Assembly (NCBI GenBank): GCA_010093605.1
Contig: MU004184.1
Coordinates: 1,994,801-2,058,800 of the forward strand
DNA from: Lophium mytilinum
Taxonomy: Eukaryota
Direction of reading: 5' to 3'
Length of the DNA stretch: 64,000 nt
Shown here: piece by piece, positions 12,392 to 51,401 of the stretch
Position numbering within the stretch: the first letter of the stretch is position 1
Layout: every line of letters starts with the position of its first letter
Notes under the pieces: model-generated
Database searches by the model: none
Told to the model about the DNA's origin: nothing
The model's input: the letters and a program-made list of their open reading frames with translations, nothing else
Program-made: the position numbers and the translations under genes

Positions 12392-12613
12392 TATAGGGGG
12401 CCAATATAATATAAGTAATAAGGTATATTAACTATTATAAAAATCTAAGCTAAGGAGAAGAGAGAGAGCTAGAAGCTCTTAAGAGGTTGTAGTTTAACGC
12501 TAGCGCACGGGCCGCGGCCTAGCGCCTCGGGCTAGCGTCTCGCTTAGGTTACGTAAGGGGCGGCATGTAACCTTAGTATATAATTATTATAATTCTAGAT
12601 TTATACTATAATA
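12392..12613 (-). repeat. 3' LTR (222 bp)
   Basis: Direct repeat of 25930-26151; ends TA...TA are consistent with RIP-mutated TG...CA. Confidence 0.93.
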
Positions 12614-15600
12614 CTACCTCCCCCTTTAAAAGCTAAAGTCCTATAAGGCTTATAATATATTATAGCTTCTCTATTCTTTCTATTCTATTTCTATTAAGCT
12701 ACTTATATAGCCTTACTATTTATATACTTACTATTCTCTATAGCTCTACTATATCTATTATTTCTATTATTTCTATTATTTTTATTATTTTTATTCTTAT
12801 ATTTATTCTTATATTTATTCTTATATTTATTCTTAAGCGCTATAAGCGGGCTATATAAATTAACCTAAGGCCTATTATTAGCTTCTATCTATTAGAGTTC
12901 TACTTTAGGTTGCCTATATAGAATAGCCTTCTTATAAAATAACTTAGCTACCTAATAAGGTTACTATTTATACTTACTTAGGCTAGTGCTTAGAATATTC
13001 TATAGGCCTACTATTACTATAGTAGCGCTTACGCTCTTACCTATTATCTTTATAACCTTCTATTTAGATATACTAAATATTAAATAAGGTTCTACTTTAA
13101 GGCTATACTTATTATAATACTTTATAAGCAGCTTATTATAGCTGTCCGCGTTCTAGTAAGGTTTCTATTTAGACCGGGTATTATTATATCTAGTCTAGGC
13201 TATTTTATATACTAGGTATAGTTTCTTACCTATATATAGATCTAATTAGCGGCTATTAAATTAGGAATTAAGGACTTTATTAATATAGTACTACCCTATA
13301 AAGCTATTATCTTCTATCTTAAAGGCTAGTAGGGGTTCTAGATATTATTTTAGAAGAGGTAGGTTTTTATTAACTTAATAAAGTAACTATAGATAGAATA
13401 CTAGAAAGATTTCTTTTATAGACTAAGAAAGTTTAAGCTTATAGGCTATATTATTAATAACGCGCGTTATATAAAAGAGACTAAGATTCTTATAGTTAAG
13501 AGACTTACTTAGCCGCGTAGTATAAATATTCTTAGTATTAAGTATAACTATATTATTAACTTTAAACTTAGGGGCCGGTAGGCGGTTCTAGTTAGCTAGT
13601 TTCTTTATCTTAGATTAATTCTAATGTAGTTTACCTTTAAGAAACTCGCGCAAGTTATAGATTTATATAATAAGCTTCTTAGCGGTGTCTACGCCTTATT
13701 TCTTAGGGCCCGGCATAATAATTCCTTAGGAGGAGGGTTTAAGGCTACTTCTAGGCGTATATTCTTTAGTAGCTTTAAATAGTAACACGCCGGTAGACTA
13801 ATTAATATTAGCGTTAGCCTTAAATTTAGTAAAGGCAATTAGGTTTACCTAGTTATCCTGCAGGTAGTAAATATACGCGCGCAGGTATTACTTTAAACTA
13901 GTATTAATAATCTTAGTTTATCTATTAGTCTCTAGATAGGCTATTATAGATAGCTTTAGGTATATTTCTACGTATTTATATAGATATTTCTAGAAAAAGA
14001 AGGTAAACTATATACTATAATTAGATATAATATAGTCTAGATAGCCTTTCTTATACTATATCTAGTTAATAAAGGCTTATATAATGTCTTCTAGCTCTAT
14101 AGAGTCTAGTAGAATAAACTTATATTTCTTAGAAAGCCTATTAATAACTACTATAATATATTAGTATATTTAGCCCTTAATAGTATAAGGCAGTAGCTTA
14201 GTAATAAAATTAATAGAGATATCTATCTAGTAATAATTTAGAATTAGTAGTAGTTTAAGTAGACTATACTTACTATCTTTATAGACCTTTATATATCTAT
14301 ATATAAGGTAGGCGTTAATATAGATAGTAATAGAGTTTATAATTTCTAGCTAGTAGTACTAGAAGGAGAGGCAATAATAGAGGGAGTTTCTTCTAGCATA
14401 GCCTCTAGAAAGAGAGTTATAGGCTTTCTTAATTAATTGCGTGCGGAGCTTTATATTATATAGAATATATAGGCGGCCGTTAATAAATAGCCTATCTTTA
14501 TAAATCTTATAGTTACTAAGCTTAATTTTAATACCTTATTTTTAAATAAGTTTAAGTAGAATTTATTATTTACCCGTTTCCTTAGCGTGTATAATATGCT
14601 AGAGGATATTATTCTCTATATAGGCTTAATTAATCTACTAAATAGTAGTATTATTAGTATAGTTCTCTAGTAAGTTCTTATCTAACTTATTACTAGGTTT
14701 AGACACTTCCGGCGCTTCTTTCTTAGGTAGACTATTAGTAGCCGTAGGTATTATAACTTTAGGGGCAGCGTTCTATAGATCTTTATCTAACTTACTATAA
14801 TTAGCTATAGCCTTAGTTAAGCGCTTCTTTTCTCTTATTTTATTAGCTGCTAGAATAATATATAGAATATCTATAGGGTGCTACTCTATAATATTATATA
14901 TTAGCTAGGCGAGTTAGATAATAGTTACTTTCTATTTATTAAGAAGTATACTAGCAAGCTAGAGGGCTTAGTATATTTCTTCTAGTAGGTTTCTCTTTTT
15001 TAATATAGTCTATATTTAATATATAGTTCTAGAATTATTTAAATTATCTAGAATATTACTAGGCCTATAAGTAAGGCTATTAGGCTTAGTTAACTACTTA
15101 CCTAGTCGCTAGTTTAGGATAAAGTTAAATTAAGAAAGGTATTTAGCCTATTAGGCTTAACGGCGATTTAACTACTTAGAAGATATAAAGTATTCTAGGT
15201 TCTTATAGTCTATTTATATAAGTATTAGATTAATAACGCTAGTAAGCTTAGGTTACTATTCTTTAAAGGCTTAAATAATGGCGAGCAGTTCTTTATTATA
15301 GATTTTATAGTTATACTTAGTAGGGGTTATCTTCTTTAAGAGAAAGGTAATAGAACGTAGGATTCTATCTAGTCTATATTATAAAAGAATTACAGCTATA
15401 ATATAATCTAAAGTATTAGTTTTAAGAATATAGTCTAGGTCCGGGTTAAAATAAGCAAGTACTAAAGCTATTAGAAAGAAGGCTTTAAGTTTCTTAAAGG
15501 CTTAAGCTGCTAGGCTATTAGTAAGTAGAGGAAAGTTACTTTATTCTATAGTCTTCTTAGTAAGCTTAGTTAGTAGAGCGGCGATTTATAAATAGCTGGC

Positions 15601-16798
15601 GATAAATTACTAGTAGAAGTTATAGAAGCCTAGAAATAATTAAATATTCTTAATATTCTAGGGTAGCTTCTAGTTCTAGATAGTACTAACTTTAGTTAAG
15701 TCTATTTCTATACTGTTAGGCGTAATAATTAGTCTAAGATACTTAACACGTTTAACTAAGAAGTAACACTTATTAATATTAAGAAAGAGACCTATATTAT
15801 ATAAGGCAGTAAGAATATTTATATAGTCCTTCTTATAATCTTTCTTATTATTACTATATATAAGGATGTTATCTATATAGGCTATATAGTAGATATTAAG
15901 ATATAGTTATAGTATAGAGTTAATAAATAATTAGAATATACCGGGGGTATTATAGAGGCTAAAGGGTATAACATTAAATTTAAACACGCCGTATTAGGTA
16001 CGGAAAGCTATTTTAGGTTAGTCGCCGTCTTTAACGCGTATATTATTAAACACGGTAATTATATTAAAAATAAAGTATATCTTAGCCTTATAAAGCTGCA
16101 TAATTATATTATATAGAAGGGGAGGCGCGTTCTAGTTCTTAATTATAATTTTATTTAGTAAGTAATAATCTATATAAATGCGGAGTTCTCTACCTAGCTT
16201 ATAGATAATAATAATAGGCGCTATAAATAGCAACGTGCTGGAATAAATAAAGCTTTTCCTAAGCATCTTATTAATATAGGCCTTAACGGCGCGCAGCTTA
16301 TTATAAGAGAGGCTATATTAGCGCAGGACTAGAGGTTTTATATTTAGGTCTTTAAAGTTAATAGTATAGTCTATACTAGGCCTATATAGTAGTAGTTTAT
16401 TAGCTACTTATAGATTAAACGCGTCTAGAATCTAATAGAAGAAAGGAGAAATCTTCTATTAAAGCTAATTCTTTATATATAGCGATTTAGTTATTTTCTT
16501 CTTAAATTAATAGTAATTTTCTATAGTAATACCTGCAAGGTTTACTACCTAGCGCCTATAGGCGTGTTGCTTATCCATTTTATTAGGCTAGTCTAATTAC
16601 TTAAAGTCTTGTAAAGTAATAGTTATTACCGCGTTCTTATCTTATTTTACTATAGTAGAATAGGCGTATATAGAGATAAACTAAATATTATATTTAGGTA
16701 GTTTATCTAGTAGAACTAGTTTAGAAGGAAAAGGCTTCCTATTATAGTTAAGCTAAGGGGAGTCTTTAGTATTATTAGGCCCTTTAATAATAGGGCTA

Positions 16799-16860
16799 AA
16801 GTTAGAGTTAGAGTTAGAGTTAGAGTTAGAATTAGAGTTAGGGTTAGAGTTAGAGTTATA
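16799..16860 (+). repeat. (GTTAGA)n hexamer tandem repeat inside Gypsy pol
   Basis: About ten consecutive GTTAGA units with minor variants. Confidence 0.85.
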
Positions 16861-19765
16861 TTAAGAGCTATAGAAGTTGCCTAGGTTCTAGTATAGTTTA
16901 ATTTTAATATATTTTAAGTAGATAAGGCTCTTTATAATAACTAGCCGGCTATAGCAGAGGTAGTTAGATATGTAATAGTTAGATTAAAAGATAAGTTACA
17001 TCTTTCTAAAGCTAATAGTAGAGTTATAAAGTTAAAGCTAGAGTATACCTAGAATTATATTATATTATCTAGTATTAGTAATATAGTAGGTAATAGTATT
17101 ATAGTAGTTACCTATATAGAAAGTAATATCTACTATATAGTCTAATATAATAGAGGGCTTACTATTAGTAAGCTTAAGGATAATAGGTTATAAAAGAGGT
17201 TAGGTAGGTATCTTATAAAGGCGCGCGGTCTTTAAATAAAGGAACTAAGAGCCTAATCCTATATTAGAAAGAATCTTAGTAGTAAATAAATTAGAATTAG
17301 ATTAGAGAATACTACCTAAGAAGCTAAACTATTTACTATTAACTAGTTAAGGTATAAGCGCAGATATACGCATAATAACCGGCTTAATTTCTTATTCTAA
17401 AATAGTAATCCTATCTATAACCGCTCTTAATTTTCTATTATTAAAGGCTGTTAGAGGTTCTTAGTAGTAACTATTACTAAGAACTAAGTATTTCCTATTA
17501 TTTTATTATAGGCAGAGCTAGTATTTATAGCGCTAATATTAACGCTAGTAAGGTTAATCTTATCTATAAGGCTACTAACCTTATAGATTAAAACTAGCTA
17601 TTAACTAATATATAGGGCGTTGCTATTAGCTATATAAAAGAAAGATATAATATAATTAAATTTATAGCACCTTAGAAATACAACCTAAGAAGTACTTCTA
17701 GGGGCTACTTAAGGCCCTATAAACGTTTATATATAGTATTAAAGCTCTATAAGCCGTACTAGCAGCGTTATAGTAGAATTACGTATTACAACCCCTATTA
17801 TGCAGTATTATTAACAATAATAATAATAATAATAACACTACTAATAACACTAATAATAACCCTAAAACTAAACCTACTAACTAAAGACTAAGTAGAATAT
17901 CTATACTAATATCTAAGCGCTTATTAAAGAAGCCTATAGTATATAGAACTCTCTATAAAATAAGCCTATATCCTCTAACCCTAAGATAAATAACGCCCTT
18001 AAGCACCTCTAGAACTTCGCCGGGCGCGTACTAGCTAGCCTCTTAGGCACTATAAAGAACCTATAATAAACGCTATAAAGGAAGATAATAAAAATAATAG
18101 AGAAAATATAGAAGAGTATATAGGCGCTATCTATACAAGAAATAACCTACATAGTAGTAATAGCGGCAGAAAGAAATAGTAAGACTATAGAAAATAGGGA
18201 GTATATAATATAGACTATCTATAAAATTACTATATATATTAAGAATAAGAAGAAACGCGCTATAATAAATAAGAACTTAAACGCAACTATTACCTATAAG
18301 CTTTAAGTAGTAGAAGAGCCTAATATAATAAAGATCTATAGTATTAGAAAGCTCTAGAGCAGAGACGTAAAGGCCTATATACTAGACGCAACCGCTAAGA
18401 AAGCCCTATTAAAGAAGAAGGAATAGATAAAGGTTCTAGGTAAAATAGTATAAATCTAACTACCTAAGGTCCTTCTAGAGGTGCATAGAGTACCTAAAGA
18501 GATAGATCTAGAGGACCTAATACTATAAAGTAGTATTATATAAGATAATAAGGTACTATACCTAGGCCTAGCTATATATAAGATTATATAGAAGCACCTA
18601 AATTAAATCTAGGCTATTAGAAATAACTCTAAATAGCGCGCCTTATTAGCTATAGTTACTATAGATATAGAGGCAATAGTAAATAAGATTATAGATAGCA
18701 GGCTAGCATAAAATAGATATATACTAGAGGCTATAAAGTATAAGATAGGCTTTATAGCTACCTAATGCTTTTAATGCTAGGGCTATAGGCATATTACTAG
18801 ATACTATAAAAAGGAGGCAGTATACGCGGCGTGCGCAGGAGCTTATAATATAAGATAATGCACAGAGGAGAGTATTAGAAAGTACACTAACTATAAAAGA
18901 AGCTACCTATTATATAGTGCAGCGTGCACTATAAGAAAGAATGCTTAACTAAAAGCTAATATAAAGAGGTAGGTAGCACTAACCTACTATAGAGCTAATA
19001 ATAGCCCTAATAATAATACTAATAATACGCCGGGCATAGTAATATTCTAATCTATAATAGAATTACAAGCTCTTAATATAGTAAGTAGAAAGAGAAAGGC
19101 TACTAAGAATAGCAACGCACTAGACAGTAGCACCCTAAGGAGAGTAGAACGCCCCCCTATATCTACTATATTTACTACATATAAGGACCTAAAATAACTA
19201 AAGATAAATAGAGTACTATAGTCTATCTATGCTATATAGACTACCTAATTAATATATACTTCCTATTTAATATAGTAGCCTAACTATAATAACCTATAGC
19301 CTTACTATAATAGCCTATAGCCTTTCTATAGAACTCTATAGCCTATCTATAAAACACTATACTACTCTTAGATAATAATCTACAGTAATAACGCTGGACT
19401 ATTACAATTTAACGTAACTTAGGTACTATCTACCTAGAAAGAAGAGGTAGCGAGCTATTAGCTCTATACTAAGGCTAGCTAGGCCGCAATAAATAACCCT
19501 AAAAACTCTATAGATATCTAATATTAGGGTAATCTAATATACTTACTATTATATAGTATAATATTAATAAGAGCCAAGAGACCTAAAGGGAGTTCCTTAA
19601 AAAGATAGAGGCGGCCTAGCTCTAGCTATTAGTACTAGCTATATAAGAACTATAGAAAAATACCTAGAAATATACCTTACTATATATAAAATTATACTAC
19701 CTACTATATAGAGGAAGCCTAAAAGCTAGAATATATATATATATTAATAAGTACCTAAACCTAGG

Positions 19766-20390
19766 NNNNNNNNNNNNNNNNNNNNNNNNNNNNNNNNNNN
19801 NNNNNNNNNNNNNNNNNNNNNNNNNNNNNNNNNNNNNNNNNNNNNNNNNNNNNNNNNNNNNNNNNNNNNNNNNNNNNNNNNNNNNNNNNNNNNNNNNNNN
19901 NNNNNNNNNNNNNNNNNNNNNNNNNNNNNNNNNNNNNNNNNNNNNNNNNNNNNNNNNNNNNNNNNNNNNNNNNNNNNNNNNNNNNNNNNNNNNNNNNNNN
20001 NNNNNNNNNNNNNNNNNNNNNNNNNNNNNNNNNNNNNNNNNNNNNNNNNNNNNNNNNNNNNNNNNNNNNNNNNNNNNNNNNNNNNNNNNNNNNNNNNNNN
20101 NNNNNNNNNNNNNNNNNNNNNNNNNNNNNNNNNNNNNNNNNNNNNNNNNNNNNNNNNNNNNNNNNNNNNNNNNNNNNNNNNNNNNNNNNNNNNNNNNNNN
20201 NNNNNNNNNNNNNNNNNNNNNNNNNNNNNNNNNNNNNNNNNNNNNNNNNNNNNNNNNNNNNNNNNNNNNNNNNNNNNNNNNNNNNNNNNNNNNNNNNNNN
20301 NNNNNNNNNNNNNNNNNNNNNNNNNNNNNNNNNNNNNNNNNNNNNNNNNNNNNNNNNNNNNNNNNNNNNNNNNNNNNNNNNNNNNNNNNN
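19766..20390. other. Assembly gap
   Basis: Run of N. Confidence 1.
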
Positions 20391-22389
20391 TCTAGTATAA
20401 CCGCAAGAAAAGAGCTATATAGAAAGAGAGCACTAAGGTATAGCGCTATATAGTAGAGAAGGTAATAAATAACTCTAAAGGGGCATAGAAACTAGCTAAA
20501 TAGGGCTGCACAGTTAAAAAGAAATTAAGGCCCCCTTCTTAATTTCCCCCCCTCTTCTAGCTAGGTAACTCTACCCTATATATAGATAATAAAATAAAAG
20601 TATATATACTTACTAAATAGTTCTTTCTACTACTAGTAGAAGCTAACCTATCTAATCTAGAAGGGTTCTAATACCTAGAACTATATACTACCTTTATAGA
20701 AGTTACTATAGAAGATATACTCTTAGTACTAATAGAAATTACGCTAGATAAGGCCCCTAGAATTATAGGAATTATAAATAGATTTCTAAAGAAGTATAAG
20801 ATATAACTAGTACTAGTACTTACCCGCTTCTTTATAAAGTACCTATATAGAGAATACTACCCCCGCCTATTTAAAGAATTAATTATAGTAGTTCTATATA
20901 AACTCTAGAAAGCGTTCTATATAATAGTAAAAGCCTACAGGCCTATTACGCTGCTAGAAATAATAGGTAAGCTATTTAAACGCATTATAGCTAAGAGGCT
21001 CTCTAAGATAGTAGAGGAAAAGGGCATGCTACCGCCTAGCTAAATAGGGGTACAGCTAGAACGCTCTATATAGATAGTACTTAAACTTCTTATAGAATAA
21101 ATCTATACTATATAGAAAGAAAACCCATAGCTTATAGTATTACTTCTTAGCCTAGATATATTAGAAGCGTTTAATTAAGTCTTATATAAATAAATAATAT
21201 ACAACCTACAGGTCTAGAGTATACTAGAGTAGATAATAAGGTTTACTAGGTTCTTTCTATAAGACTATATAACTAGGCTCTCTATAGGAAGCTATATAGT
21301 AGAACTAATTATAGTTACTATAGGCATTCTATAGGGCTTCTCCCTATTACCTATTCTTTTTCTCTTCTTTACTAGTATACTACTACTAACTCTTTAGAAT
21401 AGTAATATAACGGCCTATAGGTTTATAGATAATATAAACATCCTTATATATAGTAGAACTATAGAGGTAAACTATAGGGCTATTAAGAGAGTTTATAATA
21501 GATGCATAGAATAGGTAAGAAAGCACGGCGTAGTATTTATACTAGATAAATATTACCTAATATACTTTATAAGAGCCTATAAAGAAGTTAACCTAAAAGC
21601 TATAGTTAATATATAAGGCTTTATAGAGGGCCCTATAATAGACCTAAGAGTACTAGGGGTATAGATAGACTTAAAGCTTAAATAGGGCCTATATATTAGC
21701 ATTATAAAGAATAAAGCTATAACCTAGATAGAAGTACTTACGCGGCTTATAGTATCTACCTAGGGCGCTAGCTTTAGAAAAGCACGCCTAATATACTTAG
21801 TAGTAGTCTAGCCTACTATTATATATAGATATACTACCTAGTATACTATACTAGGTATGCTAGAGTAGCTTAGTAAGATAAAGATTAAGTAGCTTAAAAT
21901 AATCTAGAACTAATACCTCTAAAGAATCTTAGGGGCCTATAAGACTATAAGCACTATAGTACTAGAATATAAAATATTATACCTACTACTCTAGCTAAAA
22001 CTAGAGGAACTTATAGTAGCTTACGCAGACTATACGCGTAAAGGGCTAGCATGCTAGTATATTAAAATAGCATATAGTAATATATAATAGAAAATCTATA
22101 CCTACTATAGGCTACTTATAAGGCTAAAGTACAGCTCTAGCCGCTATAATATACTCTATAATCTTATAGTAAAGGCTATAAGGTTATATACTAGATATAA
22201 AGATAAATTAGATAAAGCCTATAAGCGCTTAAGGCGATTTATAATTAAATGCAAATATAAAGAAAGATAGAAGAAGGTATAGAAGTTCTTTTATAAAATA
22301 GAATAGCGCGGGCTACTAACGCCGGCCCTTAATACTAAATAGAGTAAATAATAGAAGACTATATATAAAGGGCTTATAAAGGTTAAAAG

Positions 22390-22814
22390 NNNNNNNNNNN
22401 NNNNNNNNNNNNNNNNNNNNNNNNNNNNNNNNNNNNNNNNNNNNNNNNNNNNNNNNNNNNNNNNNNNNNNNNNNNNNNNNNNNNNNNNNNNNNNNNNNNN
22501 NNNNNNNNNNNNNNNNNNNNNNNNNNNNNNNNNNNNNNNNNNNNNNNNNNNNNNNNNNNNNNNNNNNNNNNNNNNNNNNNNNNNNNNNNNNNNNNNNNNN
22601 NNNNNNNNNNNNNNNNNNNNNNNNNNNNNNNNNNNNNNNNNNNNNNNNNNNNNNNNNNNNNNNNNNNNNNNNNNNNNNNNNNNNNNNNNNNNNNNNNNNN
22701 NNNNNNNNNNNNNNNNNNNNNNNNNNNNNNNNNNNNNNNNNNNNNNNNNNNNNNNNNNNNNNNNNNNNNNNNNNNNNNNNNNNNNNNNNNNNNNNNNNNN
22801 NNNNNNNNNNNNNN
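22390..22814. other. Assembly gap
   Basis: Run of N. Confidence 1.
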
Positions 22815-25800
22815 CCTTAGCGCCCCCTCTTAACTAGTACTTAGTATAGATAGTTAGCTTTAGGTCTCTACTATATACTCTATAATATATACTTTCTATA
22901 TACTTTCTATCCCTTATAGCCCTTCTATTCTTAAATAGCCTACCTACTTTATAATAGTATATACACGCGGCTTTCTCCCTCCCGCTATTAGTTAGTTATA
23001 CTATAAGGGCTTATACTTACTATAAGCGGCTATATACTTTCTAATTATAGACTATAAACTATATACTCTATACTCTTAGCCCTTCTATAGCTATTAACTA
23101 TACTATAGAGGCTTATATATACTACTATAGCTATAAACCCTATATAGCCGCTTATAGCCCTTCTACTCTTATAGCCTGCCTATAAACTATATACTTTCTA
23201 TATACCTCTACTATATACTACCTATATACTACGCAGCCTTTCTATCTCTAATAGCCTATACGGCTACTATTTATTTTACCTTATTACCTTAGATAAAGGC
23301 CCTGTAAGCGCACTACTTATACGCGGGCCCTTACGCTAATTCTATACTAGCCTTGCATCCGGATTCTACTTAGCCTAAACCTAGGAGGATAATAATAAAC
23401 CTTTTTAGATAGATATAGAAAGATATATCTTAATAGCTTATTCTATAGTAGTTTTTATAGACCTACTATATATCCCCTATAGTAAAATATAAAGAAGAAG
23501 GGCGCCTAACACTAGATATAATAGAGAATAAGGTTTTTACCTAAATACTACCCGGCAGCAAATAGTTTTCCCCTTATAAATTAGCCTAGATAGAATAGCT
23601 ATATAGACCCTAATAGGAGCTATACTAGTATAATAGAATTTAATAATAATATTAGCTATATATTTATATTTAAAATAGTTTTAGTAGTAGCCTAGCTATT
23701 TAAGGTAAGTAATAGTATAGTAATTGCAACTAAAGAGGCCTAGAGAGTTATTTATAGTAGTAGTAGTTAGAGTAGTATTACTATTTTTAGATATTTACTT
23801 AGCGTTAGTAAGCGGCGGGCGGCAAGGTATAGTTAAGCTAGCGCCCGTAGGTTTATAGATATCGCGCGTAGACTTAGAAGTTTTCTTATCCTTATAGATA
23901 TTCTTATTTAGTTTAATAATATCTAGCTATAATTCTAGGGTCTAAAGGAAAGTAATAAATATTATTATATTACTATTTTATCTATTAGCGGCTTTATACT
24001 TAAGGCTATTAGTAAGATTACACTATATATAGTAGATCTTCTTAGAGTTCTTAAGATAGAGGGAGGCTATGCTAGTATTAAAGCAGCCTACCTAGGTTAT
24101 AATATACTTATTCTTCTCTTATATAAACTTACTATTATATAAGTTAGTACGCGCATTAGCTACTTTATTAAAGGGTCTATAGACCTTATTTAGGTTATTA
24201 ATTAATTTCTCTATAAAGAGGTATAGCTTATTACTATTAGATTTAGCGCGGTAGAAGATTATATTAAATACTTTACTCTTAAGTCTATTATAAATATATA
24301 CTATATAATAATATATAGTAGCGTATAATAGTATATAGATATCTAGCTTACTAAGTACCTATATATACTACTACTAGTAGAATAGCTTATTCTTATTACT
24401 ACTACTAAACTTATCTAGATTAGGGTAGTAATATATTACTGCGTATATACCGGGGTTAGAAATAGGCGTAAATAGAGTAGTAGACTTGCTCTTAATAGGT
24501 TTAAACTATAGAGGCTAGCTAATAGAATATTAATAAAGTAGAACTATAAGTATAGAAGAATAAGTACTATTATTATCTAAATTATAGTTAGAGTCTAGAG
24601 GCGGTAGGCATATAGCCCCCTATTAATATAGCTATTATTTAAGCTTCTTAATATAGTTAGTAAGCTATTTATATATATTCTTAATTATATAATATTTACC
24701 GCGCTAGTAGTTATAGCGTAGGCGCATCTAGTTAAGCTTTTAGTTAGCCTAGTAGCTACTAGTAATATACTAAAGCTGCTTAGCGTAATAAGCCTCTAAT
24801 TCTTATTCTACTATAGCAGTATTATTAGAGGTATCTTATTTATACTTTTAGTATTTATTCTAGAGGTTATTATAGAGCTTATTTTTCTTATTAGCTTTCT
24901 TAAAGCCTACTTTATACTCTATATAGAGCTTCTAGAAGGATTTCTACTATACTAGGTTATTCTTATTTACTATAGTAGTAAACTCTATCTTATTAGTAAC
25001 TATAGTATTAATAGTTATAGTACTATTACTATAATAGTTAAGAAGCTAGACTAGTAGCTATATATAGCGCTATAGGTTAGTTTCTTATAGTCTCTCTAGA
25101 ATATCTATATACTTAGGCTTAGTATCTAGAATCTATTTAGTCTTATAGCGTGTAACTAGAATAGAGGCTTATTAGTCCGCTATAGATACTTAGTAATAAG
25201 TAGCGCGCAGCTAGCCGCCTCTAGCTTAAGGTTTATATATATTATCTTCTATAATAAATTAAATAGCGCGCTTATCTAGAATATTTATGCTAGGCGTTAT
25301 AAAGCCGCCTTTATTATTAGAGTTATAGTCTAGGTTAAGTTTATTAGTAATATTCTAGTTTAAGGTTCTAGTAGCATTAACTTATTTATCTACTAAGCGT
25401 TTAGAGCGCTAGGTGTTAGCGCGCTAGGTATTAGTGCGCTAGGTATTAGTATACTAGATATTAGCACGCTAGGTATTATCTATAGTCTATAAAAAGGCTT
25501 AGGTATTAGTATTTAGAATTAGTTCTCTAGTTTTATATTAGGAGCTAGAAATAATAGCTAGAGTAGAAGAGCCCTTAGCTGCGCCTTAAAAATAAGTAAG
25601 TTATATAGCGTAGTAAGCTTTCTTATTACTAGCAGTTAATAGAGTTATAGAAATATAGGTAATTAGTAGTTCTTCTAAAGTATTTAGGTTAGCGCTATTT
25701 ATAGTACCTAGAGTCTTTAGATTATCTTAAAGCCTAGCTATTTAATTAACTAGCTTATTTAAAGAAGGCGGTGCTAGATTATCTACTAGGTTAGATTTAG

Positions 25801-25929
25801 GTGCCGCGCGTAGCTATATAGCTAGGCCGGCTAGTATTTAAATTATTTTAGTAAAAATACCTAGATCTTATAATAGAGTTCTAGAAAAAATTAATAAGAT
25901 TCTAAGTATAGAAGAGTAAGCTTAGATTA

Positions 25930-26151
25930 TATAGGGGGCTAATATAATATAAGTAATAAGGTATATTAACTATTATAAAAATCTAAGCTAAGGAGGAGAG
26001 AGAGAGCTAGGAGCTCTTAAGAGGTTGTAGTTTAACGCCGGCGTATAGGCCGCGGCCTAGCGCCTCAGGCTAGCGTCTTGCTTAGATTATATAAGGGGCG
26101 GCATGTAACCTTAGTATATAATTATTATAATTCTAGATTTATACTATAATA
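25930..26151 (-). repeat. 5' LTR (222 bp)
   Basis: Direct repeat of 12392-12613; the differences I saw are C/T or G/A transitions. Confidence 0.93.
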
Positions 26152-27280
26152 TTACTTAATTAAGCTTTATACCTTAAAAAACGCTTTAGTATCTTAGATT
26201 TTCTAGGCACGGTTATTTTAAGTAAATTACTTTTTCTTTTAAGCTTTCTTTCTTTACTATTATACTTTTTAGTAAGGTTTTTTTAGACTTACTTTATAAT
26301 ATTAGTAATATTTTACTTAAGATTTATTATTACTTAAAGAGATCTAGAGGGGTCTCTAGTTATACTAAGCTTTTAAGTTTATATTTTTAGGTTATCTATT
26401 TTCTAACCTTCTATTATAGCTAGTATATTACGTGCTAGAGCCTCTATTAGTTTAGATACTACTAATTTATACTTTAAAAGAGTATTATTAATATACTATT
26501 AGCCTTTTCCCCTCTTTATCTTATTACCTAGATAGAATTTAACTATAGCTAGTTTATAGTTACTATAGCCTTTTAAATCTTTAATTACCTATCTATAGTA
26601 CTAATCTAGTATTTATAGCTTTATATATATTCTATCTATTTAGCTTAAACTTTTATCCCCGTACTAGATATACTATAGCTTATTAGGGTAAGCATTCCGC
26701 TATCTATTAACTAGATTACTTATATCTAGTACTAATTATAGAGTCTTTCTTATACTAAGAGTATATTATACTAGGGGTTTTAATTAAATTCTATTTTAAC
26801 TATATTAAAATCTCCGGCTAGAATATCTACCTACTTTATAAAAGGATAGTCTTTAACTTAATTAAAAAATTCTACTTACCCCGTTCTATTATTTAAACTT
26901 GGAGCGTATACCCCTAGAATGCTTACTTTCTAAGAAGATGCTTCTACCTTAATTTTAATGCCTAGGTATCTTCCCTTAGAATCTTTAAATTCCACGGAAA
27001 TAGAATTATAATTAGTCCGGCTGCTTAGTAGTAGAATAGCTACTCTAGTCCTATCTAGGTATAGGCAGTTCGTTATAAATGTTACCTTTTTGCGCCCTCA
27101 TTCCCTATAGTAGTAAGTGAGCCTTTCTTTAACTTCTTTCTTAAGCCTAATTTCTTAAAGAAGCAGTATATTAATTCTGCTGTCTCGTGCTAGGGTAATA
27201 TAGCCTCCCACGCTCTACTAATCGCTACTACTACCTTAGCAGTTCCAAGTTGCAATTCTTATAATGTTGTTATATTTAAT
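26152..27280 (-). mobile_element. L1/Tx1-type LINE ORF2, AP-endonuclease domain (RIP-damaged)
   Basis: IRIATWNC*G ~27260, INILLL*E, LAGDFN ~26810, IDRIY ~26630. Continuous with the RT fragment once the Gypsy element is removed. Confidence 0.88.
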
Positions 27281-27520
27281 GGCTGCGGGAGATTACTTAT
27301 TAGTCCTTTAGTTATTTTAGTTACAAGTTAGCTTTAGCAATAGTATTTCACGCAGATGTAGGTTACGCAAAATTCATTAATTAGTTTAGTAGAGATTTTG
27401 AAATTAGAGCTATCTTAAGGGTGCGTTAAGCGCAACCCGTGTTAGACAACCTTTAGTTAGGTCAAGAGCGCAATTTAGCGCACCTACGAAGCAAGAGAGA
27501 CACAGAGAGAAAGAGTCGAC

Positions 27521-29069
27521 CTACTTCTTCAACTTAGCCTTCCCCTTCTTTTTCTTGTCCTTCTTAGACTGCAGCTTGCTGTCCTCCTTTACTTTCTTAC
27601 CCTTCTCGTCCCCTTTCTTAATGTCCGCTGACGGTACGTACTTTTGAGCCACCTGCTTAATCCAAGGTTTCTTACTCTTACCTATACCTTGGGCACAGTA
27701 GGCTGCTGACGCCGTTGTACAATCCCAGATTGAATGCCCTGCCGCTCCACATCCACTGCACTCCTGAGTTCCCCCAGTGATCATTAGATGCTCCGAGTTC
27801 CCAAGCTGAATTTGCTTCCCATGCCAGCGAACAGGCTCTTCGAAACGTACGGTGACCGCTCCGTAAAATGCGCCTTGTCCTTGCTTTTGGCAGATCTTCT
27901 TAACTTTGAAGCCAGGGCAATTTGACTTGTGGGCGTGGAAGTAATTGATTATACCCTTGCGGATATCCTCCTTCCTATCTTCTGGGAAGACAACCGTTGC
28001 TAGGTTCCAGACTGTCGGTGGTTTTCCTGCTAAATCCTTGTTCCCAAACTCTTCGACTTTAACCGGGTGGTAACGTTCGCTGTCAGAGGCCTTATCGGAT
28101 CCGCTGCCATGGTGGTTGCCATTTTCGCTATCAGAGCTGGAGCTATCAGCGTCGCTTTGGTCGTCATCGCTGGAGTCCGAGATCTCGAGAGCAGCAGGGG
28201 CAGGCCTGGGGGTTAGTCCACCCGCGTCAGTCATCGCTTCTTCTTTCACCTGCGCAGCATTGTTTTTAGCCTGCCCGTTGATCGCAGTATGAATCGGAGA
28301 TGGTTCGAGAGTAGTGTCCCGCCTGATTCGACGCAAATCGCTACTCTCATCAAGTGCAGGAGCAAACAAACCGGACCCTGTGGCGATGTTGTTGCTCTGA
28401 TCAGCGACGCCATCTCGAAGGCTTGCAAAAGCCTTGGCTATGCGATCAAAAGCGTGGTAGTCGGACTCGTTCGGCTGCGTATAGAGCCGATGTGTTGCGG
28501 CTGTTACAGCCGCCAACCCAACCTCAGCCTTTTCAGGAGTGTCTAACTGTTTGGCCAGAAGCCAAGCGGACTTGTCGATCAACTCCCGCTCTATAACTTC
28601 CCGAGCGCGCTGCATTCTCTCTTCCGACGCTCCATGGGCTACCATCTGGGCTATAATAGTATCTAAACTGAGCTGGTTCAGTACGTCCGGAGGAAGTGTT
28701 ATGTTGATGAGACCCTGCACCGCTTCCTTGTAGAGCTCGTCATCTGGGAATCCACGACATAGGTATTTGACATAAAAGCTCATTTCCGCTGACGAGGTCG
28801 TTATGGAATTGATCGCATTGGGAGGGAAGTAGGGATCCGCATCGCCTCTGAAAACCGATCTGCTTCTTTGTGCAGTGCTGGTTCTTGTGGGTAGGTCGAC
28901 ATGGCGTCCGGGTGTTAGCTCATGGGAGCTCTGTTGTCTCGCTCGCACATTGCGGGATGGTCCGGCCTCCGTCGGAGAGAGCGATCGGGCCTGGCTCTAT
29001 CAGCATCCATGTGAGGCATTTGGGGGAGACAGCGCGACATACCCTTCTCTTTCCAGTCGCGGGTGTCAT
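27521..29069 (-). CDS. Paralog A: family N-terminal domain fused in frame to a LINE ORF1-like CCHC zinc-knuckle region
   Basis: Intact ORF. N-terminal SVFRGDADPYFP...YKEAVQGLINITLP...WLLAKQLDTPEKA is shared with paralogs B and C. C-terminal CSGCGAAGHSIWDC (Cx2Cx4Hx4C) and a Lys-rich tail lie directly upstream of LINE ORF2. The 5' exon MTPATGKRR is tentative. Confidence 0.8.
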
Positions 29070-29655: not shown

Positions 29656-31398
29656 TCAATGAGCCCAAAGAAGGCCTGAGACTTCCTCCCACTCGATCAC
29701 ACAGGGGAGTCCTCGCTGGTGGTGTCTGATCCAACGAATAGTGACTCGCCCTTGCGGGGAGCGTCTGCAACATGTGTCTGAGCATTTTGCACAACACCAC
29801 GTTCTCGTCTTGTGCGGTCTGGTACCGGAGTCGAACCTGCAATGCTTAACTTCTGGTCGAGTTTCATCTTCTCCGCGTCATTTCCGCGGTCCAGTACCTG
29901 TGTGGTTTTGATGCTTGTCTTTGGCTTTAGAAGGTGCGTAGTTGCCTTGAGTTGTCTCTTAACATCTGTGTGGGTGCTCAAAGAAGCCTTGTCATCTTGC
30001 AGCGTGTAATCCCGCATTGGAGTGTCGTGCCTAGTTTCTGTGTAATACTCTTGCTCCCTTTTAGACTGGTACTTCCTACGCTCTAGCTCGTTGGCGATAT
30101 TGTCATCTCTCAGGTGCCCTTGCTTTGTGTCGGAGCAGTGATTTTCATGCTGCATCGCGCGTATTTTCCCGTCACCTGTATGAGACTGCTGCTCTTTTTC
30201 AGGATGATGACTTCCACGTTGCACCGTCAGGGCCCTCTCGCTCTTCTGTTCCGTGGTACCGTCAAAGGGGGGGTTCTCCTCCTTAGCTAGAAGCAGCATT
30301 CTCAAATCTCCAGAGAGGAGATCTCTATACTGGGAATTCCAATCATCCACGTCTTCCTCTGACAGTTCCTTCCACAATATTCCGATTTTATTGATGAGCT
30401 CTTGATACGTAGCTCCTTTCTTCATGCTCCGTCTGACTAAGGGCAACGCATGGCGGGAAAATAGGTGACGAGGCTTCTGGATCCTCTCTAGAATCTTGGC
30501 CAATGTTAATTTAGCGGTATAGCCAACATCCCAAATAGCTTTCTGCTCGGTATCGGGTCTTTCGACAGGATTGTTCGGTTGGACGGTCTTACTACGACTA
30601 TGCTCTTCACGGTTAGAAAACTCGATATCCATAGGATCGATTTGGGGAGTTTGCTCTTGGGATTTAGAGCGCATCGAGGGTTTGATCATAGTACCTCCCT
30701 TGACTACAGCATGATTGTCCGGAGGATGGCCAAAGTCCGAGACCACAGCATCGAACATCGCTGGAGCGAGTTCTGTCCCGTGTACCTGATGACTCCGAGC
30801 GATAATTGTCTGGATCGCTATCTGCGCCTTTTGCGGAGTATCCAGCTGCTCAGCCAATAACCAAGTAAGCCTGTGGACCATTTCCTCCTTGGCTACCTCG
30901 CGCATTGCTTTGGTCTGGTCTGACGTAGCGCCGTTCGCCAACATCTGGCTCTCGATTACGTTAACTCCGATCTCATCCAGCACCCTTGCTGGAAAACATA
31001 TCTTCAACAGGCCTTGGATAGCCTCTTTGAACTTGTCATCCCTAGGATTTTCTTGGCAAACGAACTTGAGCCGATGTTGCCACTCATCGTCGGAGTCTGG
31101 TACTGTCTCGTCGGCTCCGAACGTTGACTGCTCATCGGAGCCTTCTTGAAGTCGCTTCGCGCCAACATTTCTCGCAGTTGAAGACTGAGAACGGTCCTAC
31201 AAGGGTCAGAAATGCTTGGATCGAGATGATGTGTCTGCGCTTACTTCTCGCTTTCGTTTTGCTGGGACCTGGGCCTATGTGTGGGGTTAGATTAGCCGGT
31301 AGCCTCCTGACTGGATTTCGGAACACGCGTACCTCCATCCTGCCGCGTCCAGGTTTTGATCCGCCGGAGCCACCTCTGCGGGCCGTCCAGGACGCCAT
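29656..31398 (-). CDS. Paralog B: N-terminal family domain plus HMG-box-like domain; last exon apparently frameshifted
   Basis: Exons MASWTARRGG...RME|AQVPAKRKRE|DRSQ...FKEAIQGLLKICFP...WLLAEQLDTPQKA...ELINKIGILWKELSEEDVDDW. Terminal VIEWEEVSGLLWAH* lies in a shifted frame. Confidence 0.75.
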
Positions 31399-32113: not shown

Positions 32114-34431
32114 TCACCACTTGAGACCAGAAATGGCCTCCCACTCTTGAACCAAGTCACATTGCTTGAGCTCAAGGAATCTGTCTCTGTACCTGAACAC
32201 AATAGGCCTGACTCTCATCTCAAGCCTGAAACCTAAAGAACTGCCAGCACAGTCGCGAAGCACAGAGAAGATGCTGTCCCTGATCTTGCTGCGAGCACCG
32301 AACTCGACTTCGTAATTCTAGGAAGAAAAGTGAGTTTCAAAAGGCGTGACAGACCGTTAAGAAACTTTTCGTACCATTGGGTGCATTCTATTCCGAAATG
32401 CGTTACAGACGAAGTCTCCTACTGCGATAGCAGTCGCTGGAGTGAGAGCTGGACCGTTGAGGAACAATAAGTCTGTTACTGGGGTCGTGTCCTAAGATAT
32501 CTTGGATCAATGCTTGCCACATCAATAAAGATGAACGCTATACTCACCATCCGAAGGACCGAAAACATGACGGGATGTTGCCATAGCTCAGGGAAAGCCT
32601 TCGGGTTGACCGCGATCCAGTATTGAAGGTCCCGCTCGATGTCACTCCGAGCTTTCTTAGAATCGACAAGGTATGTAGAAGTCAAAGCTTTCATAGTGCG
32701 GGGACGCACACTTGCTTTTGTCATCCGATAGCAGATTTTATCGGGAAAGCTGATAGATGCAGTCTACGAAGAGTGAGTCATCGAACGTCTCTTTGAGGAA
32801 TATTTGAGGGGTTACCTCTTCCGGAATGCGCTGGGACAGCCACGGCAGCAGTGCCCTCGTAACATCCTCTGGTTGATCCCTAGGAAGCTCTGATGTGCCC
32901 CAGAAAAGATCAACGACTGGGGGTTCGGTGTTCTGGAGACGCTCTGATGCCGGTCCCCTTGGTACATCTGCATGAGGATTTACTGTGACTGATTTTCTGG
33001 ATGCACTTAGAGGAACATTCACAACTACTGAACCTCTTGTCGCGTCTGTGGACGCATTCGAGTGGGATTTTGTTGTACCGTCCTGCTTAATTATCGATGC
33101 AGTACTACGCAGTGTAGATGAGTTGGCATCTATATTGGGCTCGCGCTTTATCTTAACATCTTTTCTTCCATTATGGGCATTGTTTCCACGTTCTGAGGGC
33201 ACTCCGGCTTCGCCATCACTAGGTGCTGGAGGGCTGCTTGAATCCTTGGAGAATACGAGCATGGATGAATCACCACTTAGAAGCCGTTTGTAGCTGAGAA
33301 TCCAGCTCTTGCGCTCTTTTTCGGTCAACCCTTTCCACCGACGACGGATCTCAGCTGTAAGATCTTCATAAGGTGTGTTGTCCTCCATATCCTCTCGAAC
33401 CACAGGGAGAGCATGATAAGCGTAGAGATGGCGATCTTTCTTGAATATCTTCGGTATGTCTTCCTTTGAGAGATCCAGAGGAGTTTCAATGTCCCAGCAG
33501 GCTTTCTTTCTGTTCTGAAGGCTGTGCGTTTGGGCAGAAGACGAGACTATCTCCTCTTGAATGGATGGACGCCTCTTGTATTGATTTTCTGGAATGATTA
33601 TGCTGGTTCGGGGTCTTGTTGGAGGTCGTTCTGGGGACCGAGAACGAATTGGGAGTTGTGTACTCCCTTCCGCATCGACGCGACCAGCTCGATCCCCTAG
33701 AGTCTGGCCCCGAAGCTTCCGGAGTTCTTTAGCTAGGCTCCCAAATCCGTTTTCCTCATTCTTCTGGCCGTGTCTGTGGTTGCTTGCGTCAACGATGGAG
33801 GTGATAGTCTCCCTCGCCTTATCAGGGGTGTCGAGATATTCAGCCAAAACCCAGATCAGCCGGTGTATAACCTCTTCTCCGGCTAATTTCCGCATAGAAT
33901 CAACCCTCTTTTCGTTTGCGCCCTTTTCTCGCATTTTCCTTTCAATGTCCGAAATCTCGTCGGACACAAAGCCTGATGGGAAGCTCATTTGTAAGATTCC
34001 TTGCAACGCTCTCTTGAATATAGTGTGATTTGGGTCCGTTGTACAGAGGACGTCGAAACGGAAAGACCATTCCTCAGACTCTGGTAGAGCTTTTGGGGCA
34101 GTAATGCTGGAAGGGCAGTAGGGGTCATCATCGCCTCGGAAAATGGACTTTGCTCGCTCGAATGAAGACCGGCCGGGATCGCTCGGGGCGTTAGGAGTTT
34201 CCAGGTTTCGTTTGGCTCGAATATTGGGGTGAGTTGTGGGTTCAGGTTGTTCCTTCATAAGTCAGTAACCTCCGATCTCAGATTTCGGGATATCGTACCG
34301 TTCGTTTTCGCTTGCCGTTCTGCGTCTGTTTGATTGTGTGTCAGTAAAGACAATGTGAGCCTAGAGAAGCTTCGTACCTGAGATCCGTTCTTGAGGGGCG
34401 TTTTCGAGCCCCCTCTCGCCGGGGTTGCCAT
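32114..34431 (-). CDS. Paralog C: apparently complete member (N-domain, HMG-box-like domain, duplicated C-terminal module), ~6 exons
   Basis: MATPARGGSK...SQ|TQNGKRKRT|EQPE...SIFRGDDDPYCP...WVLAEYLDTPDKA...EIRRRWKGLTEKERKSW...PPVVDLFWG...PEE|TASI...NPKAFPELW...LRM|DTTPVTDLLF...PM|NYEV...LVQEWEAISGLKW*. The introns are GT-AG and keep frame. Confidence 0.82.

Positions 34432-49007: not shown

Positions 49008-51401
<2,394 letters not shown>

What the first reader, a model, noticed from the sequence alone, without database searches (positions are those of the whole stretch)
27521..29069. Intact in-frame chimera: host paralog N-terminus fused to a LINE ORF1 zinc-knuckle protein
Homology to the family continues to about ...LAGKPPTV (~28015), which aligns with PPVV in C and PTPC in D. 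The same open frame then runs into a predicted alpha/beta segment, a CCHC knuckle (27719-27760) and a Lys-rich tail, stopping ~240 bp before the LINE endonuclease, where ORF1 belongs. The ORF has normal GC content and no stops although the adjacent ORF2 is ruined. Inference: a 5'-truncated LINE insertion created a new gene, possibly retained as a domesticated RNA-binding or anti-TE protein. Alternatively, a LINE captured a host domain.
Basis: partly seen in the sequence, partly recalled or inferred. Interest (0 to 1): 0.78.

Follow-up and report, generated by a model that had tools for sequence, protein, structure and literature searches.

The report
Fungal gene split by retrotransposon, read-through chimera
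A fungal gene was cut in two by a piece of a LINE retrotransposon, and its front half now reads in frame into the leftover tail of the LINE's RNA-binding protein; this gives a real but probably accidental hybrid gene, not a proven new function.

Summary
Window 27521-29069 (minus strand) is an intact two-exon ORF of 498 aa, identical to the annotated hypothetical protein BU16DRAFT_579238 of Lophium mytilinum. Its first ~335 aa belong to a local tandem family. Its last 163 aa carry an RRM-like domain, one CX2CX4HX4C knuckle and a Lys-rich tail. That tail region is related to 7 unnamed proteins (E 3e-6 to 7e-4) and sits 258 bp upstream of a LINE ORF2.

- **Missing half.** The rest of the host gene lies 16 kb away, at 11604-10497, with intact exons.
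- **LINE piece.** The insert is cut at both ends, running from mid-ORF1 to RT motif A. It is itself split by a 13.8-kb Ty3/Gypsy element.
- **RIP gradient.** RIP damage decays smoothly with distance from that Gypsy on both sides. The undamaged ORF1 remnant therefore needs no selection to explain it.

The one relative found with the same subfamily layout (Mytilinidion resinicola) keeps the normal C-terminus. My reading is a lineage-specific gene disruption giving an in-frame read-through chimera. Expression and function are untested. Domestication is possible (~15%) but unsupported. Interest is modest.

The parts
28013..29069 (-). Host-derived part of the chimeric gene: exon 1 at 29069-29043, intron at 29042-28991, and exon 2 down to ~28013. 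About 335 codons: the family N-terminal domain plus an acidic, Ser-rich linker.
   Evidence: 100% identical to annotated P0002. tblastn to in-window paralogs gives E 8e-25 and 9e-16. 65% identity to P0003 down to 28220. Intron read from the sequence; the spliced product matches P0002 and the N-terminus of P0004.
27524..28012 (-). LINE ORF1 remnant: 163 codons in frame with the host part. RRM-like alpha/beta domain, one CCHC knuckle and a Lys-rich tail. Stop codon at 27521-27523.
   Evidence: phmmer against 1.84 billion representatives gave 9 non-self hits at E<=1e-3. Seven share the domain and knuckle. AF2 model pLDDT 56. VIA-align Z 5.2-6.8 to RRM domains. Not RIP-affected: index 1.04-1.56.
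27719..27760 (-). CX2CX4HX4C zinc knuckle (CSGCGAAGHSIWDC).
   Evidence: C85, C88, H93, W96 and C98 are invariant in all 8 rows of alignment A1. Pfam zf-CCHC was not reported at E<=1.
27263..27520 (-). Spacer between the ORF1 stop and the start of the ORF2 reading. Partly RIP-affected.
   Evidence: Sequence. RIP index 0.68-0.81.
26156..27262 (-). LINE ORF2 5' part with an APE-type endonuclease-like reading, 369 codons, ruined by RIP.
   Evidence: Read-through translation with X. Stops per 50 codons are 4,1,4,7,10,11,6,3, rising toward the Gypsy LTR. An ordered motif pattern hits once in the six frames of the window and in 0 of 300 shuffles, but the pattern was post hoc and the motifs recalled. 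Pfam and PDB sequence searches found nothing.
12392..26155 (-). Nested Ty3/Gypsy LTR retrotransposon. LTRs at 25930-26155 and 12392-12617. Heavily RIP-mutated, with two assembly gaps (19766-20390 and 22390-22814).
   Evidence: 226-bp direct repeat at 93.8% identity. All 14 differences are transitions. RVT_1 E 2.9e-15, RT_RNaseH_2 6.5e-14, RT_RNaseH 8.9e-13 and SH3_Tf2-1 4.8e-4, all in one minus-strand frame. No target-site duplication recognised.
11600..12391 (-). Continuation of LINE ORF2: linker plus the N-terminal third of the reverse transcriptase. It ends in motif A (..LDQQKAY) at about 11606-11594, directly against host sequence.
   Evidence: Pfam RVT_1 E 2.8e-6, profile positions 1-74 of 205. 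Best PDB matches are human LINE-1 ORF2p residues 492-592 (E 1.2e-4 to 3.6e-4), then R2 proteins. 369+257 = 626 codons to motif A fits a single ORF2 split by the Gypsy.
10497..11604 (-). Orphan 3' half of the host gene: linker plus the C-terminal 'FPEL' domain. At least four exon segments, all open, with a conserved C-terminal end and stop.
   Evidence: tblastn of P0003: residues 182-250 to 11586..11380 (36%, E 1e-5); 254-323 to 11157..10948 (43%, E 3e-12); 350-389 to 10619..10500 (57.5%, E 1e-8). Frame translations.

Best explanation
What it is. A member of a lineage-specific tandem gene family had the layout N-terminal helical domain, then an acidic linker, then a C-terminal 'FPEL' domain, as in the Mytilinidion relative P0003. 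It was interrupted in its linker by about 2.6 kb of a LINE (non-LTR retrotransposon) in the same orientation. That piece runs from the middle of ORF1 to RT motif A.

How the chimera arose. The break fell in frame, a 1-in-3 event. The host 5' half (335 codons) therefore reads on through the last 163 codons of LINE ORF1 to the ORF1 stop. Those codons hold the RRM-like domain next to the CCHC knuckle, plus the basic tail. The result is the annotated 498-aa protein.

What happened afterwards. A Ty3/Gypsy element later inserted into the LINE's ORF2. RIP then destroyed the Gypsy and leaked about 0.6-1.4 kb into both flanks. It stopped short of the ORF1 remnant on one side and short of the RT fragment and host 3' exons on the other.

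Shown: the anatomy, the homologies and the RIP gradient. Inferred: the order of events; that the 3' truncation of the LINE reflects a later deletion or a repair-type (endonuclease-independent) capture; and that the chimera is a by-product of gene disruption, not a selected new gene. If translated, it would carry a nucleic-acid-binding RRM/CCHC/basic module on the family's N-terminal domain.
For: - Gene model is identical to the annotated protein P0002.
- Host N-terminal homology.
- The missing 3' half of the gene lies across the insert, with P0003 residues 182-389 matching 11586-10500 and open exons.
- Both halves match P0003 better than they match the in-window paralogs: 65% against 30-32% for the N-terminal part, and 36-57% for the orphan half against 27-39% for paralog D's C-terminal exons.
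- The C-terminal 163 aa belong to a family of RRM-like domain plus CCHC proteins. Its longer members have an extra upstream domain that is missing here.
- The fold search is dominated by RRMs at Z 5.2-6.8.
- The RT is of LINE type.
- The two ORF2 pieces add up to 626 codons to motif A and are in the same frame register across the Gypsy (coordinates).
- The Gypsy has 226-bp LTRs and RT, RNase H and integrase-SH3 domains.
- The LTR differences are 14 transitions and 0 transversions.
- The RIP index rises from 0.06 at the LTR edges to >=1.0 by 1.4 kb (proximal) and 0.6 kb (distal).
- RIP overrun into adjacent single-copy DNA is described for Dothideomycetes and Neurospora (passages read in PMC3105345, and PMC9453070).
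Against: - A target-primed LINE insertion should keep the LINE 3' end next to the host 3' flank. Here the RT is cut at motif A, and I found no poly(A) or target-site duplication, so at least one extra event must be assumed.
- The endonuclease has no statistical support from Pfam or PDB.
- None of the 7 relatives of the tail could be shown to sit next to an ORF2.
- Pfam sees neither zf-CCHC nor RRM in the tail or its relatives, and the structural model is of low confidence (pLDDT 56).
- RIP ends close to the ORF1 stop and reaches further on this side (1.4 kb against 0.6 kb). Selection protecting the ORF is therefore not excluded.
- A gene model exists in the public annotation, which may rest on transcript evidence that I could not see.
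Confidence: 0.68

Rival explanations
1. Domesticated fusion gene. The chimera is expressed and retained by selection. It uses the LINE ORF1 RRM/CCHC/basic module as an RNA-binding or anti-retrotransposon part on the family's N-terminal domain.
For: - The ORF is intact at 498 aa, with all knuckle ligands and family-invariant residues kept.
- It is annotated as a gene.
- RIP stops near the ORF1 stop codon and reaches further on this side than on the distal side.
- There is precedent for LINE ORF1-derived genes in fungi: the EKA/AVRk1 family of Blumeria (PMC4641428, passages read).
Against: - The RIP decline is gradual and mirrored on the other flank. There a functionless RT fragment and orphan exons are equally stop-free.
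- The one relative found with the same subfamily layout has the normal C-terminus.
- No second genome carrying the fusion is known to me.
- In-frame joining has a 1-in-3 chance.
Confidence: 0.15
2. The two host halves come from two neighbouring tandem paralogs, not from one gene. A 5'-truncated LINE inserted into paralog 1 by ordinary target-primed reverse transcription. A later deletion then removed the LINE 3' part, the 3' half of paralog 1 and the 5' half of paralog 2. This variant concerns only how the structure arose. It does not exclude the main reading of the chimera.
For: - It explains the 3'-truncated LINE with one ordinary deletion.
- The family is in tandem array here, with at least three copies on the same strand.
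- A Ser/Asp-rich 12-codon stretch occurs on both sides of the insert: 8 of 12 residues identical (E 0.021), with high DNA similarity over this stretch (DNA alignment). The halves may therefore overlap and not simply abut.
Against: - The overlap is short, low-complexity and barely significant.
- Both halves are closest to the same Mytilinidion protein, and together they reproduce its architecture without gap or large overlap.
- The two breakpoints would have to fall at nearly the same position in two paralogs by chance.
Confidence: 0.2
3. Assembly artefact. The host/LINE junction, or the join between the LINE pieces and the Gypsy, is a scaffolding error.
For: Two N gaps lie inside the AT-rich tract, at 19766-20390 and 22390-22814. 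RIP tracts are hard to assemble.
Against: - Both gaps are inside the Gypsy, far from either host/LINE junction.
- 26156-29069 and 10497-12617 are gap-free.
- The two LINE pieces and two host halves fit each other in order, orientation and length, which a random misjoin would not produce.
Confidence: 0.03
4. A mobile LINE variant that captured a host N-terminal domain as part of its ORF1.
For: The reading frame is continuous from the host part into ORF1.
Against: - The host part keeps a spliceosomal intron and its position at the end of the tandem paralog array.
- The other half of the host gene lies beyond the insert.
- No second copy of the fusion or of the ORF1 tail occurs in the window.
- The LINE lacks both ends.
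Confidence: 0.02

Closest known systems
Type I LINE ORF1p (classification of Khazina and Weichenrieder 2009, as summarised in PMC4120745; reported for the I, Jockey, R1, Tad1, plant L1 and L2 clades)
   Same: An alpha/beta, RRM-like domain immediately upstream of a CX2CX4HX4C knuckle, followed by a basic tail. It is encoded just upstream of an endonuclease/RT ORF2 on the same strand (passage).
   Different: Only the last 163 codons are present; the upstream domain seen in longer relatives is replaced by host sequence. No Pfam RRM or zf-CCHC hit. The clade (Tad1-like or other) was not determined.
EKA (AVRk1/AVRa10) family of Blumeria graminis, derived from LINE ORF1 (PMC4641428)
   Same: A fungal protein-coding sequence derived from a truncated LINE ORF1 (passages read).
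   Different: EKA members keep the N-terminal half of ORF1 and lose the nucleic-acid-binding half. They number in the hundreds, are expressed, and show positive selection. Here a single copy keeps the C-terminal binding half, is fused to a host domain, and has no evidence of expression or selection.
Gene disruption by retrotransposon insertion with read-through into the element (host-TE chimeric ORFs in general; recalled, no paper read for this)
   Same: A host exon continues in frame into TE coding sequence and ends at the TE's stop. The displaced 3' half is left as orphan exons.
   Different: The inserted LINE piece is truncated at both ends, carries a nested Gypsy, and is embedded in a RIP gradient that spared the fused part.
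RIP leakage (overrun) into single-copy DNA next to repeats (Leptosphaeria maculans, PMC3105345; Cladosporium fulvum, PMC9453070)
   Same: CpA/TpG depletion decays over some hundred to about 1400 bp from a repeated element into its flanks (passages).
   Different: Whether the LINE flanks were single-copy when RIP acted is unknown, because no genome was available to count copies.

Membership tests
Type I LINE ORF1p | CCHC (CX2CX4HX4C) zinc knuckle | tested here: met
   CSGCGAAGHSIWDC at 27760-27719. C85, C88, H93 and C98 are invariant in 8 of 8 rows of A1. Pfam zf-CCHC was not reported at E<=1.
Type I LINE ORF1p | RRM domain immediately upstream of the knuckle | tested here: inconclusive
   AF2 model has mean pLDDT 56. 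Foldseek found nothing at E<=0.001. In VIA-align, 25 of 50 listed rows name an RRM, UHM or RNA-binding domain, at Z 5.2-6.8. This is below the tool's caution line of Z 8. No Pfam RRM hit.
Type I LINE ORF1p | Encoded directly upstream of a LINE ORF2 (endonuclease + RT) on the same strand | tested here: met
   The stop at 27521 is followed 258 bp later by the endonuclease-like reading. The same frame resumes beyond the Gypsy with a LINE-type RT.
Type I LINE ORF1p | Sequence relatives are themselves ORF1s of LINEs | not testable with these tools
Two metagenome locus scans found nothing. No whole genome is held.
Non-LTR (LINE) retrotransposon | Reverse transcriptase of the non-LTR type | tested here: met
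   RVT_1 E 2.8e-6, 27.6 bits, just under Pfam's 29.6-bit cut-off because only positions 1-74 of 205 are present. The best PDB matches are human LINE-1 ORF2p (E 1.2e-4) and R2 (E 2.4e-3).
Non-LTR (LINE) retrotransposon | APE-type endonuclease at the ORF2 N-terminus | tested here: inconclusive
   No Pfam or PDB sequence match. The ordered motifs WNxxG / LLxE / VYAP / GDFN occur once in the window's six frames and in 0 of 300 shuffles. The pattern was written after seeing the sequence, from recalled motifs.
Non-LTR (LINE) retrotransposon | Intact 3' end (3' UTR or poly(A)) and target-site duplication, as left by target-primed reverse transcription | tested here: not met
   The RT ends in motif A at about 11600, directly against host sequence. 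The only repeat across the junctions is a weak 12-codon low-complexity similarity.
Ty3/Gypsy LTR retrotransposon (the nested element) | Direct LTRs flanking RT, RNase H and integrase in that order | tested here: met
   226-bp LTRs at 93.8% identity. RVT_1, RT_RNaseH_2, RT_RNaseH and SH3_Tf2-1 lie in one frame in that order. No target-site duplication recognised.
RIP-mutated DNA | TpA/ApT high, (CpA+TpG)/(ApC+GpT) low, and transition-only divergence of repeats | tested here: met
   The tract 11900-27450 has TpA/ApT of 1.4-2.3 and a composite index mostly below 0.3. The LTR pair differs by 14 transitions and 0 transversions.
Domesticated TE-derived gene | Fusion conserved in related species | tested here: not met
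   The only relative found with the same subfamily layout (P0003, Mytilinidion resinicola) has the family C-terminus and no ORF1 part. Only this one such relative was available.
Domesticated TE-derived gene | Expression and purifying selection | not testable with these tools
No second allele or orthologous fusion is available for dN/dS.

The most novel reading that the evidence does not exclude
A very young, lineage-specific new gene. The nucleic-acid-binding half of a LINE ORF1 (RRM-like domain, CCHC knuckle, basic tail) has been recruited onto the N-terminal domain of a fungal tandem gene family. It is expressed and kept free of RIP by selection, perhaps acting on LINE RNA, in the manner of a dominant-negative or guide for retrotransposon control.
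Probability: 0.13. Interest if true: 0.6.

Novelty: new member of a known kind. Interest (0 to 1): 0.3.

Why it matters
As it stands, this is a fully resolved example of how a retrotransposon fragment can truncate a gene and add a ready-made RNA-binding module in frame. It also shows that distance-dependent RIP leakage decides which parts of such a locus stay readable.

It is a caution for annotation too. The public 'hypothetical protein' is half transposon, and the orphan 3' exons 16 kb away belong to the same ancestral gene.

It would matter more if the fusion proved to be expressed and conserved. The only LINE ORF1-derived fungal gene family I looked at here (EKA in powdery mildew) keeps the other half of ORF1.

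Tried and rejected
- **Whole genome of the window:** not held. Other copies of this LINE, their ORF1 N-termini and copy number could not be examined.
- **RNA evidence:** Nothing can be said on expression.
- **The search for homologous proteins:**
  - On residues 255-385 it found only the protein itself.
  - With alignment A1 and 'longer' lengths it found nothing.
- **Two rows dropped from the 9 non-self hits:**
  - P0006 is a 572-aa repeat protein matched only over residues 68-99.
  - P0011 is a 3927-aa protein with ANF_receptor and 7tm_3 domains.
- **Pfam:**
  - On the whole protein and the paralogs it gave no meaningful family.
  - On the 8 members of A1 it gave no RRM or zf-CCHC hit.
  - On the read-through ORF2 5' part it gave nothing.
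  - On P0003 and P0004 it gave nothing meaningful.
- **PDB sequence search** with the endonuclease reading gave only chance rows.
- **Foldseek** against PDB gave no match at E<=0.001.
- **ESM Atlas:** the best score was 0.86, below the 0.9 guide. Some rows carried zf-CCHC or RRM_1 on about 20% of members. This is a lead only.
- **The search for related loci:**
  - With A1, the alignment had no stretch conserved enough.
  - With P0009 and P0005 on metagenome contigs, there were no confirmed loci.
- **Target-site duplications:** I looked for one around the Gypsy LTRs and saw none. I also tested for a long duplication of host sequence across the LINE insert; only a weak 12-codon match came up.
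- **Considered and rejected:** that the 16-kb insert is spliced out as an intron. This rests on general knowledge that fungal introns are short, and was not tested.
Full report
**What is at the coordinates**

On the minus strand, 27521-28783 is a 420-aa ORF. Add exon 1 (29069-29043) and a 52-bp GT..AG intron (29042-28991, read). The product is then 498 aa, 100% identical over its whole length to the annotated hypothetical protein BU16DRAFT_579238 of Lophium mytilinum (P0002). So the organism is a dothideomycete fungus and the gene model is already in the public annotation. No whole genome is held for the window.

**Host part**

Residues 1-257 of the ORF find two paralogs in the window by tblastn:
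- 31070..30660, 32% identity, E 8e-25.
- 34069..33710, 30% identity, E 9e-16.

A database search gave two outside relatives. P0003, from Mytilinidion resinicola, is 389 aa and 65% identical over the N-terminal domain. P0004 is 705 aa and unnamed. Pfam assigns none of these proteins to a family.

P0003 has the layout N-domain, low-complexity linker, then a C-terminal domain with two 'FPEL' motifs. P0004 and the 506-aa paralog have an additional middle region. That region drew only a faint HMG-box hit in the paralog (E 0.17).

**The C-terminal 163 residues (28012-27524)**

The word-indexed search found only the protein itself. An exhaustive phmmer search of 1.84 billion representatives gave 10 proteins at E<=1e-3: the protein itself and 9 others, at E 3e-6 to 7e-4.

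I dropped two of the nine. P0006 is a repeat protein matched over only 32 residues. P0011 is a 3927-aa receptor-type protein by Pfam.

The remaining seven (P0005, P0007-P0010, P0012, P0013; 24-29% identity) align over one domain ending in ..VRFE.P.RWLGKQ.., followed by C..C....H..W.C. K66, L76, C85, C88, H93, W96 and C98 are invariant in all 8 rows.

The four longest or N-terminally complete relatives (P0005, P0008, P0009, P0012) carry a further ~80-residue domain upstream. Here that position is taken by host sequence. The alignment begins at the W of 'PPTVW', and the HMMER matches start 7-10 residues into the tail.

Other evidence on the tail is weak:
- Pfam sees neither RRM nor zf-CCHC in any of the 8 sequences.
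- The AlphaFold model built on this shallow alignment is weak, with mean pLDDT 56 and 55-79 over residues 1-100.
- Foldseek found nothing at E<=0.001.
- The exhaustive structural aligner returned a list in which 25 of the 50 shown rows name an RRM, UHM or RNA-binding domain, at Z 5.2-6.8. This is below the tool's own caution line of Z 8. I treat the RRM fold as likely, not shown.

An RRM immediately upstream of a CCHC knuckle is the definition of type I LINE ORF1p, reported for Tad1 and other clades (passage in PMC4120745). I did not read the original 2009 paper.

**The LINE downstream**

The ORF1 stop (27523-27521) is followed by a 258-bp spacer. After it comes a frame that reads, with stops as X, IATWNCxG...ILLLxE...VAILL...GVYAP...GDFN. 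These are the hallmarks of an APE-type endonuclease as I recall them.

Pfam and PDB sequence searches do not detect it. An ordered motif pattern occurs once in the six frames of the window and in 0 of 300 shuffles. It was written after seeing the sequence.

Firm evidence for a LINE comes from the other end of the AT-rich tract. 12100-11621 (minus) matches Pfam RVT_1 positions 1-74 of 205 (E 2.8e-6). Its best PDB matches are human LINE-1 ORF2p residues 492-592 (E 1.2e-4 to 3.6e-4), followed by R2 proteins.

**What lies between the two LINE pieces**

A 226-bp direct repeat (25930-26155 and 12392-12617, 93.8% identity) is the only repeat within the tract. One minus-strand frame between the copies carries these domains in order:
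- RVT_1, E 2.9e-15.
- RT_RNaseH_2, E 6.5e-14.
- RT_RNaseH, E 8.9e-13.
- SH3_Tf2-1, E 4.8e-4.

This is a Ty3/Gypsy LTR retrotransposon nested in the LINE. It holds two assembly gaps (19766-20390 and 22390-22814). I recognised no target-site duplication.

The LINE ORF2 has 369 codons before the Gypsy and 257 after it, in the same codon register. That makes 626 codons to RT motif A, against about 600 in human ORF2p. The two pieces are therefore one ORF2 split by the Gypsy, not two LINE copies.

**The other half of the host gene**

tblastn with P0003 places its residues as follows, all on the minus strand directly after the RT fragment:
- 182-250 on 11586..11380 (36%, E 1e-5).
- 254-323 on 11157..10948 (43%, E 3e-12).
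- 350-389 on 10619..10500 (57.5%, E 1e-8).

The exon segments are open and end at the same C-terminal position as P0003. Together, the 5' half (P0003 residues 1-142, then linker) and this orphan 3' half (from residue 182) rebuild the P0003 architecture. So a family gene was split in its linker by about 16 kb of transposon DNA.

The LINE piece is cut at both ends. It starts in mid-ORF1 and ends at ..LDQQKAY, about 11606-11594. A later deletion of the LINE 3' part, or a repair-type capture of a LINE cDNA, has to be assumed.

A Ser/Asp-rich 12-codon stretch occurs on both sides (8 of 12 residues identical, E 0.021; DNA alignment). It is too weak to decide among three options:
- a linker repeat;
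- an old long duplication;
- two halves that stem from two adjacent paralogs.

I keep the last as a rival for the origin.

**Why ORF1 is intact while ORF2 is ruined**

The tract 11900-27450 has the RIP signature: TpA/ApT of 1.4-2.3 and (CpA+TpG)/(ApC+GpT) mostly below 0.3. The two LTRs differ by 14 transitions and no transversion.

Measured from the LTR edges in 200-bp steps, the composite index runs as follows:

| Side | Index at successive 200-bp steps from the LTR edge |
|---|---|
| Proximal | 0.06, 0.06, 0.06, 0.19, 0.50, 0.81, 0.68, 1.04 |
| Distal | 0.06, 0.21, 0.75, 1.08 |

Stops per 50 codons rise toward the Gypsy on both sides (4,1,4,7,10,11,6,3 and 4,4,1,0,0,0).

The damage is thus a gradient centred on the Gypsy, as expected for RIP overrunning from a repeat into its flanks. 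This is described for Dothideomycetes and Neurospora in passages of PMC3105345 and PMC9453070.

The ORF1 remnant lies 1.37-1.86 kb from the LTR, beyond the gradient. On the far side, the truncated RT fragment and the orphan exons are stop-free for the same reason. An intact ORF1 is therefore no evidence of selection.

The gradient does reach further on the ORF1 side and fades near the ORF1 stop. A contribution of selection cannot be excluded.

**Function**

The in-frame join has a prior chance of one in three. The one relative found with the same subfamily layout lacks the fusion. Expression could not be tested.

I commit to a by-product of gene disruption as the most likely status. If the protein is made, it carries a nucleic-acid-binding RRM-like/CCHC/basic module on the family's N-terminal domain. 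Domestication gets about 15%.

The closest fungal precedent I looked at for a gene born from LINE ORF1 is the EKA family of Blumeria. It keeps the opposite, N-terminal half of ORF1 and is numerous and expressed (PMC4641428, passages).

I did not search the literature specifically for this gene. A search for the species name returned 22 papers, and none of the 10 listed titles concerns transposon chimeras (listing only).

**Verdict**

This is a new example of a known kind (a host/transposon read-through chimera), with unusually complete local evidence for how it arose. Interest is modest unless expression and conservation are shown.

Noticed in passing
window 29697-34258 (-), with further exons at 32117-32724: At least two more tandem paralogs of the same uncharacterised family lie upstream on the same strand. 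The 506-aa copy continues into C-terminal 'FPEL' exons (32724-32117). The 415-aa copy shows no such C-terminal domain. Pfam gives only a faint HMG-box-like hit (E 0.17).
   Followed up: partly
window 10497-11604 (-): Orphan 3' half of the split gene. All homologous exon segments are still open and the C-terminal end is conserved with the Mytilinidion protein. There is no in-frame ATG before the 'DGMIQ' methionine. Whether it is annotated or expressed as a separate gene is unknown.
   Followed up: partly
window 12392-26155 (-): A 13.8-kb Ty3/Gypsy element with 226-bp LTRs that differ only by 14 transitions, so there is no non-RIP divergence. It is long for a Gypsy. The 5' two-fifths (20391-25929) gave no Pfam domain and may hold further nested material or the gag region degraded by RIP. 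There are two N gaps inside.
   Followed up: partly
window 11594-11606 (-): At the RT/host junction, the reading 'SHD' after ..KAY could belong either to the LINE RT motif or to the host linker ('DSHDSGSD'). The proximal host copy reads 'NHHGSGSD'. The shared CCATG may be junctional microhomology.
   Followed up: no
window 42481-45855 (-), 49433-50602 (-), 59342-63874 (-): The flanking GC-normal DNA holds ordinary large fungal ORFs. By eye these look like a SET-domain protein, a glutamine-fructose-6-phosphate aminotransferase fragment and a long Ser/Pro-rich protein. None was examined.
   Followed up: no
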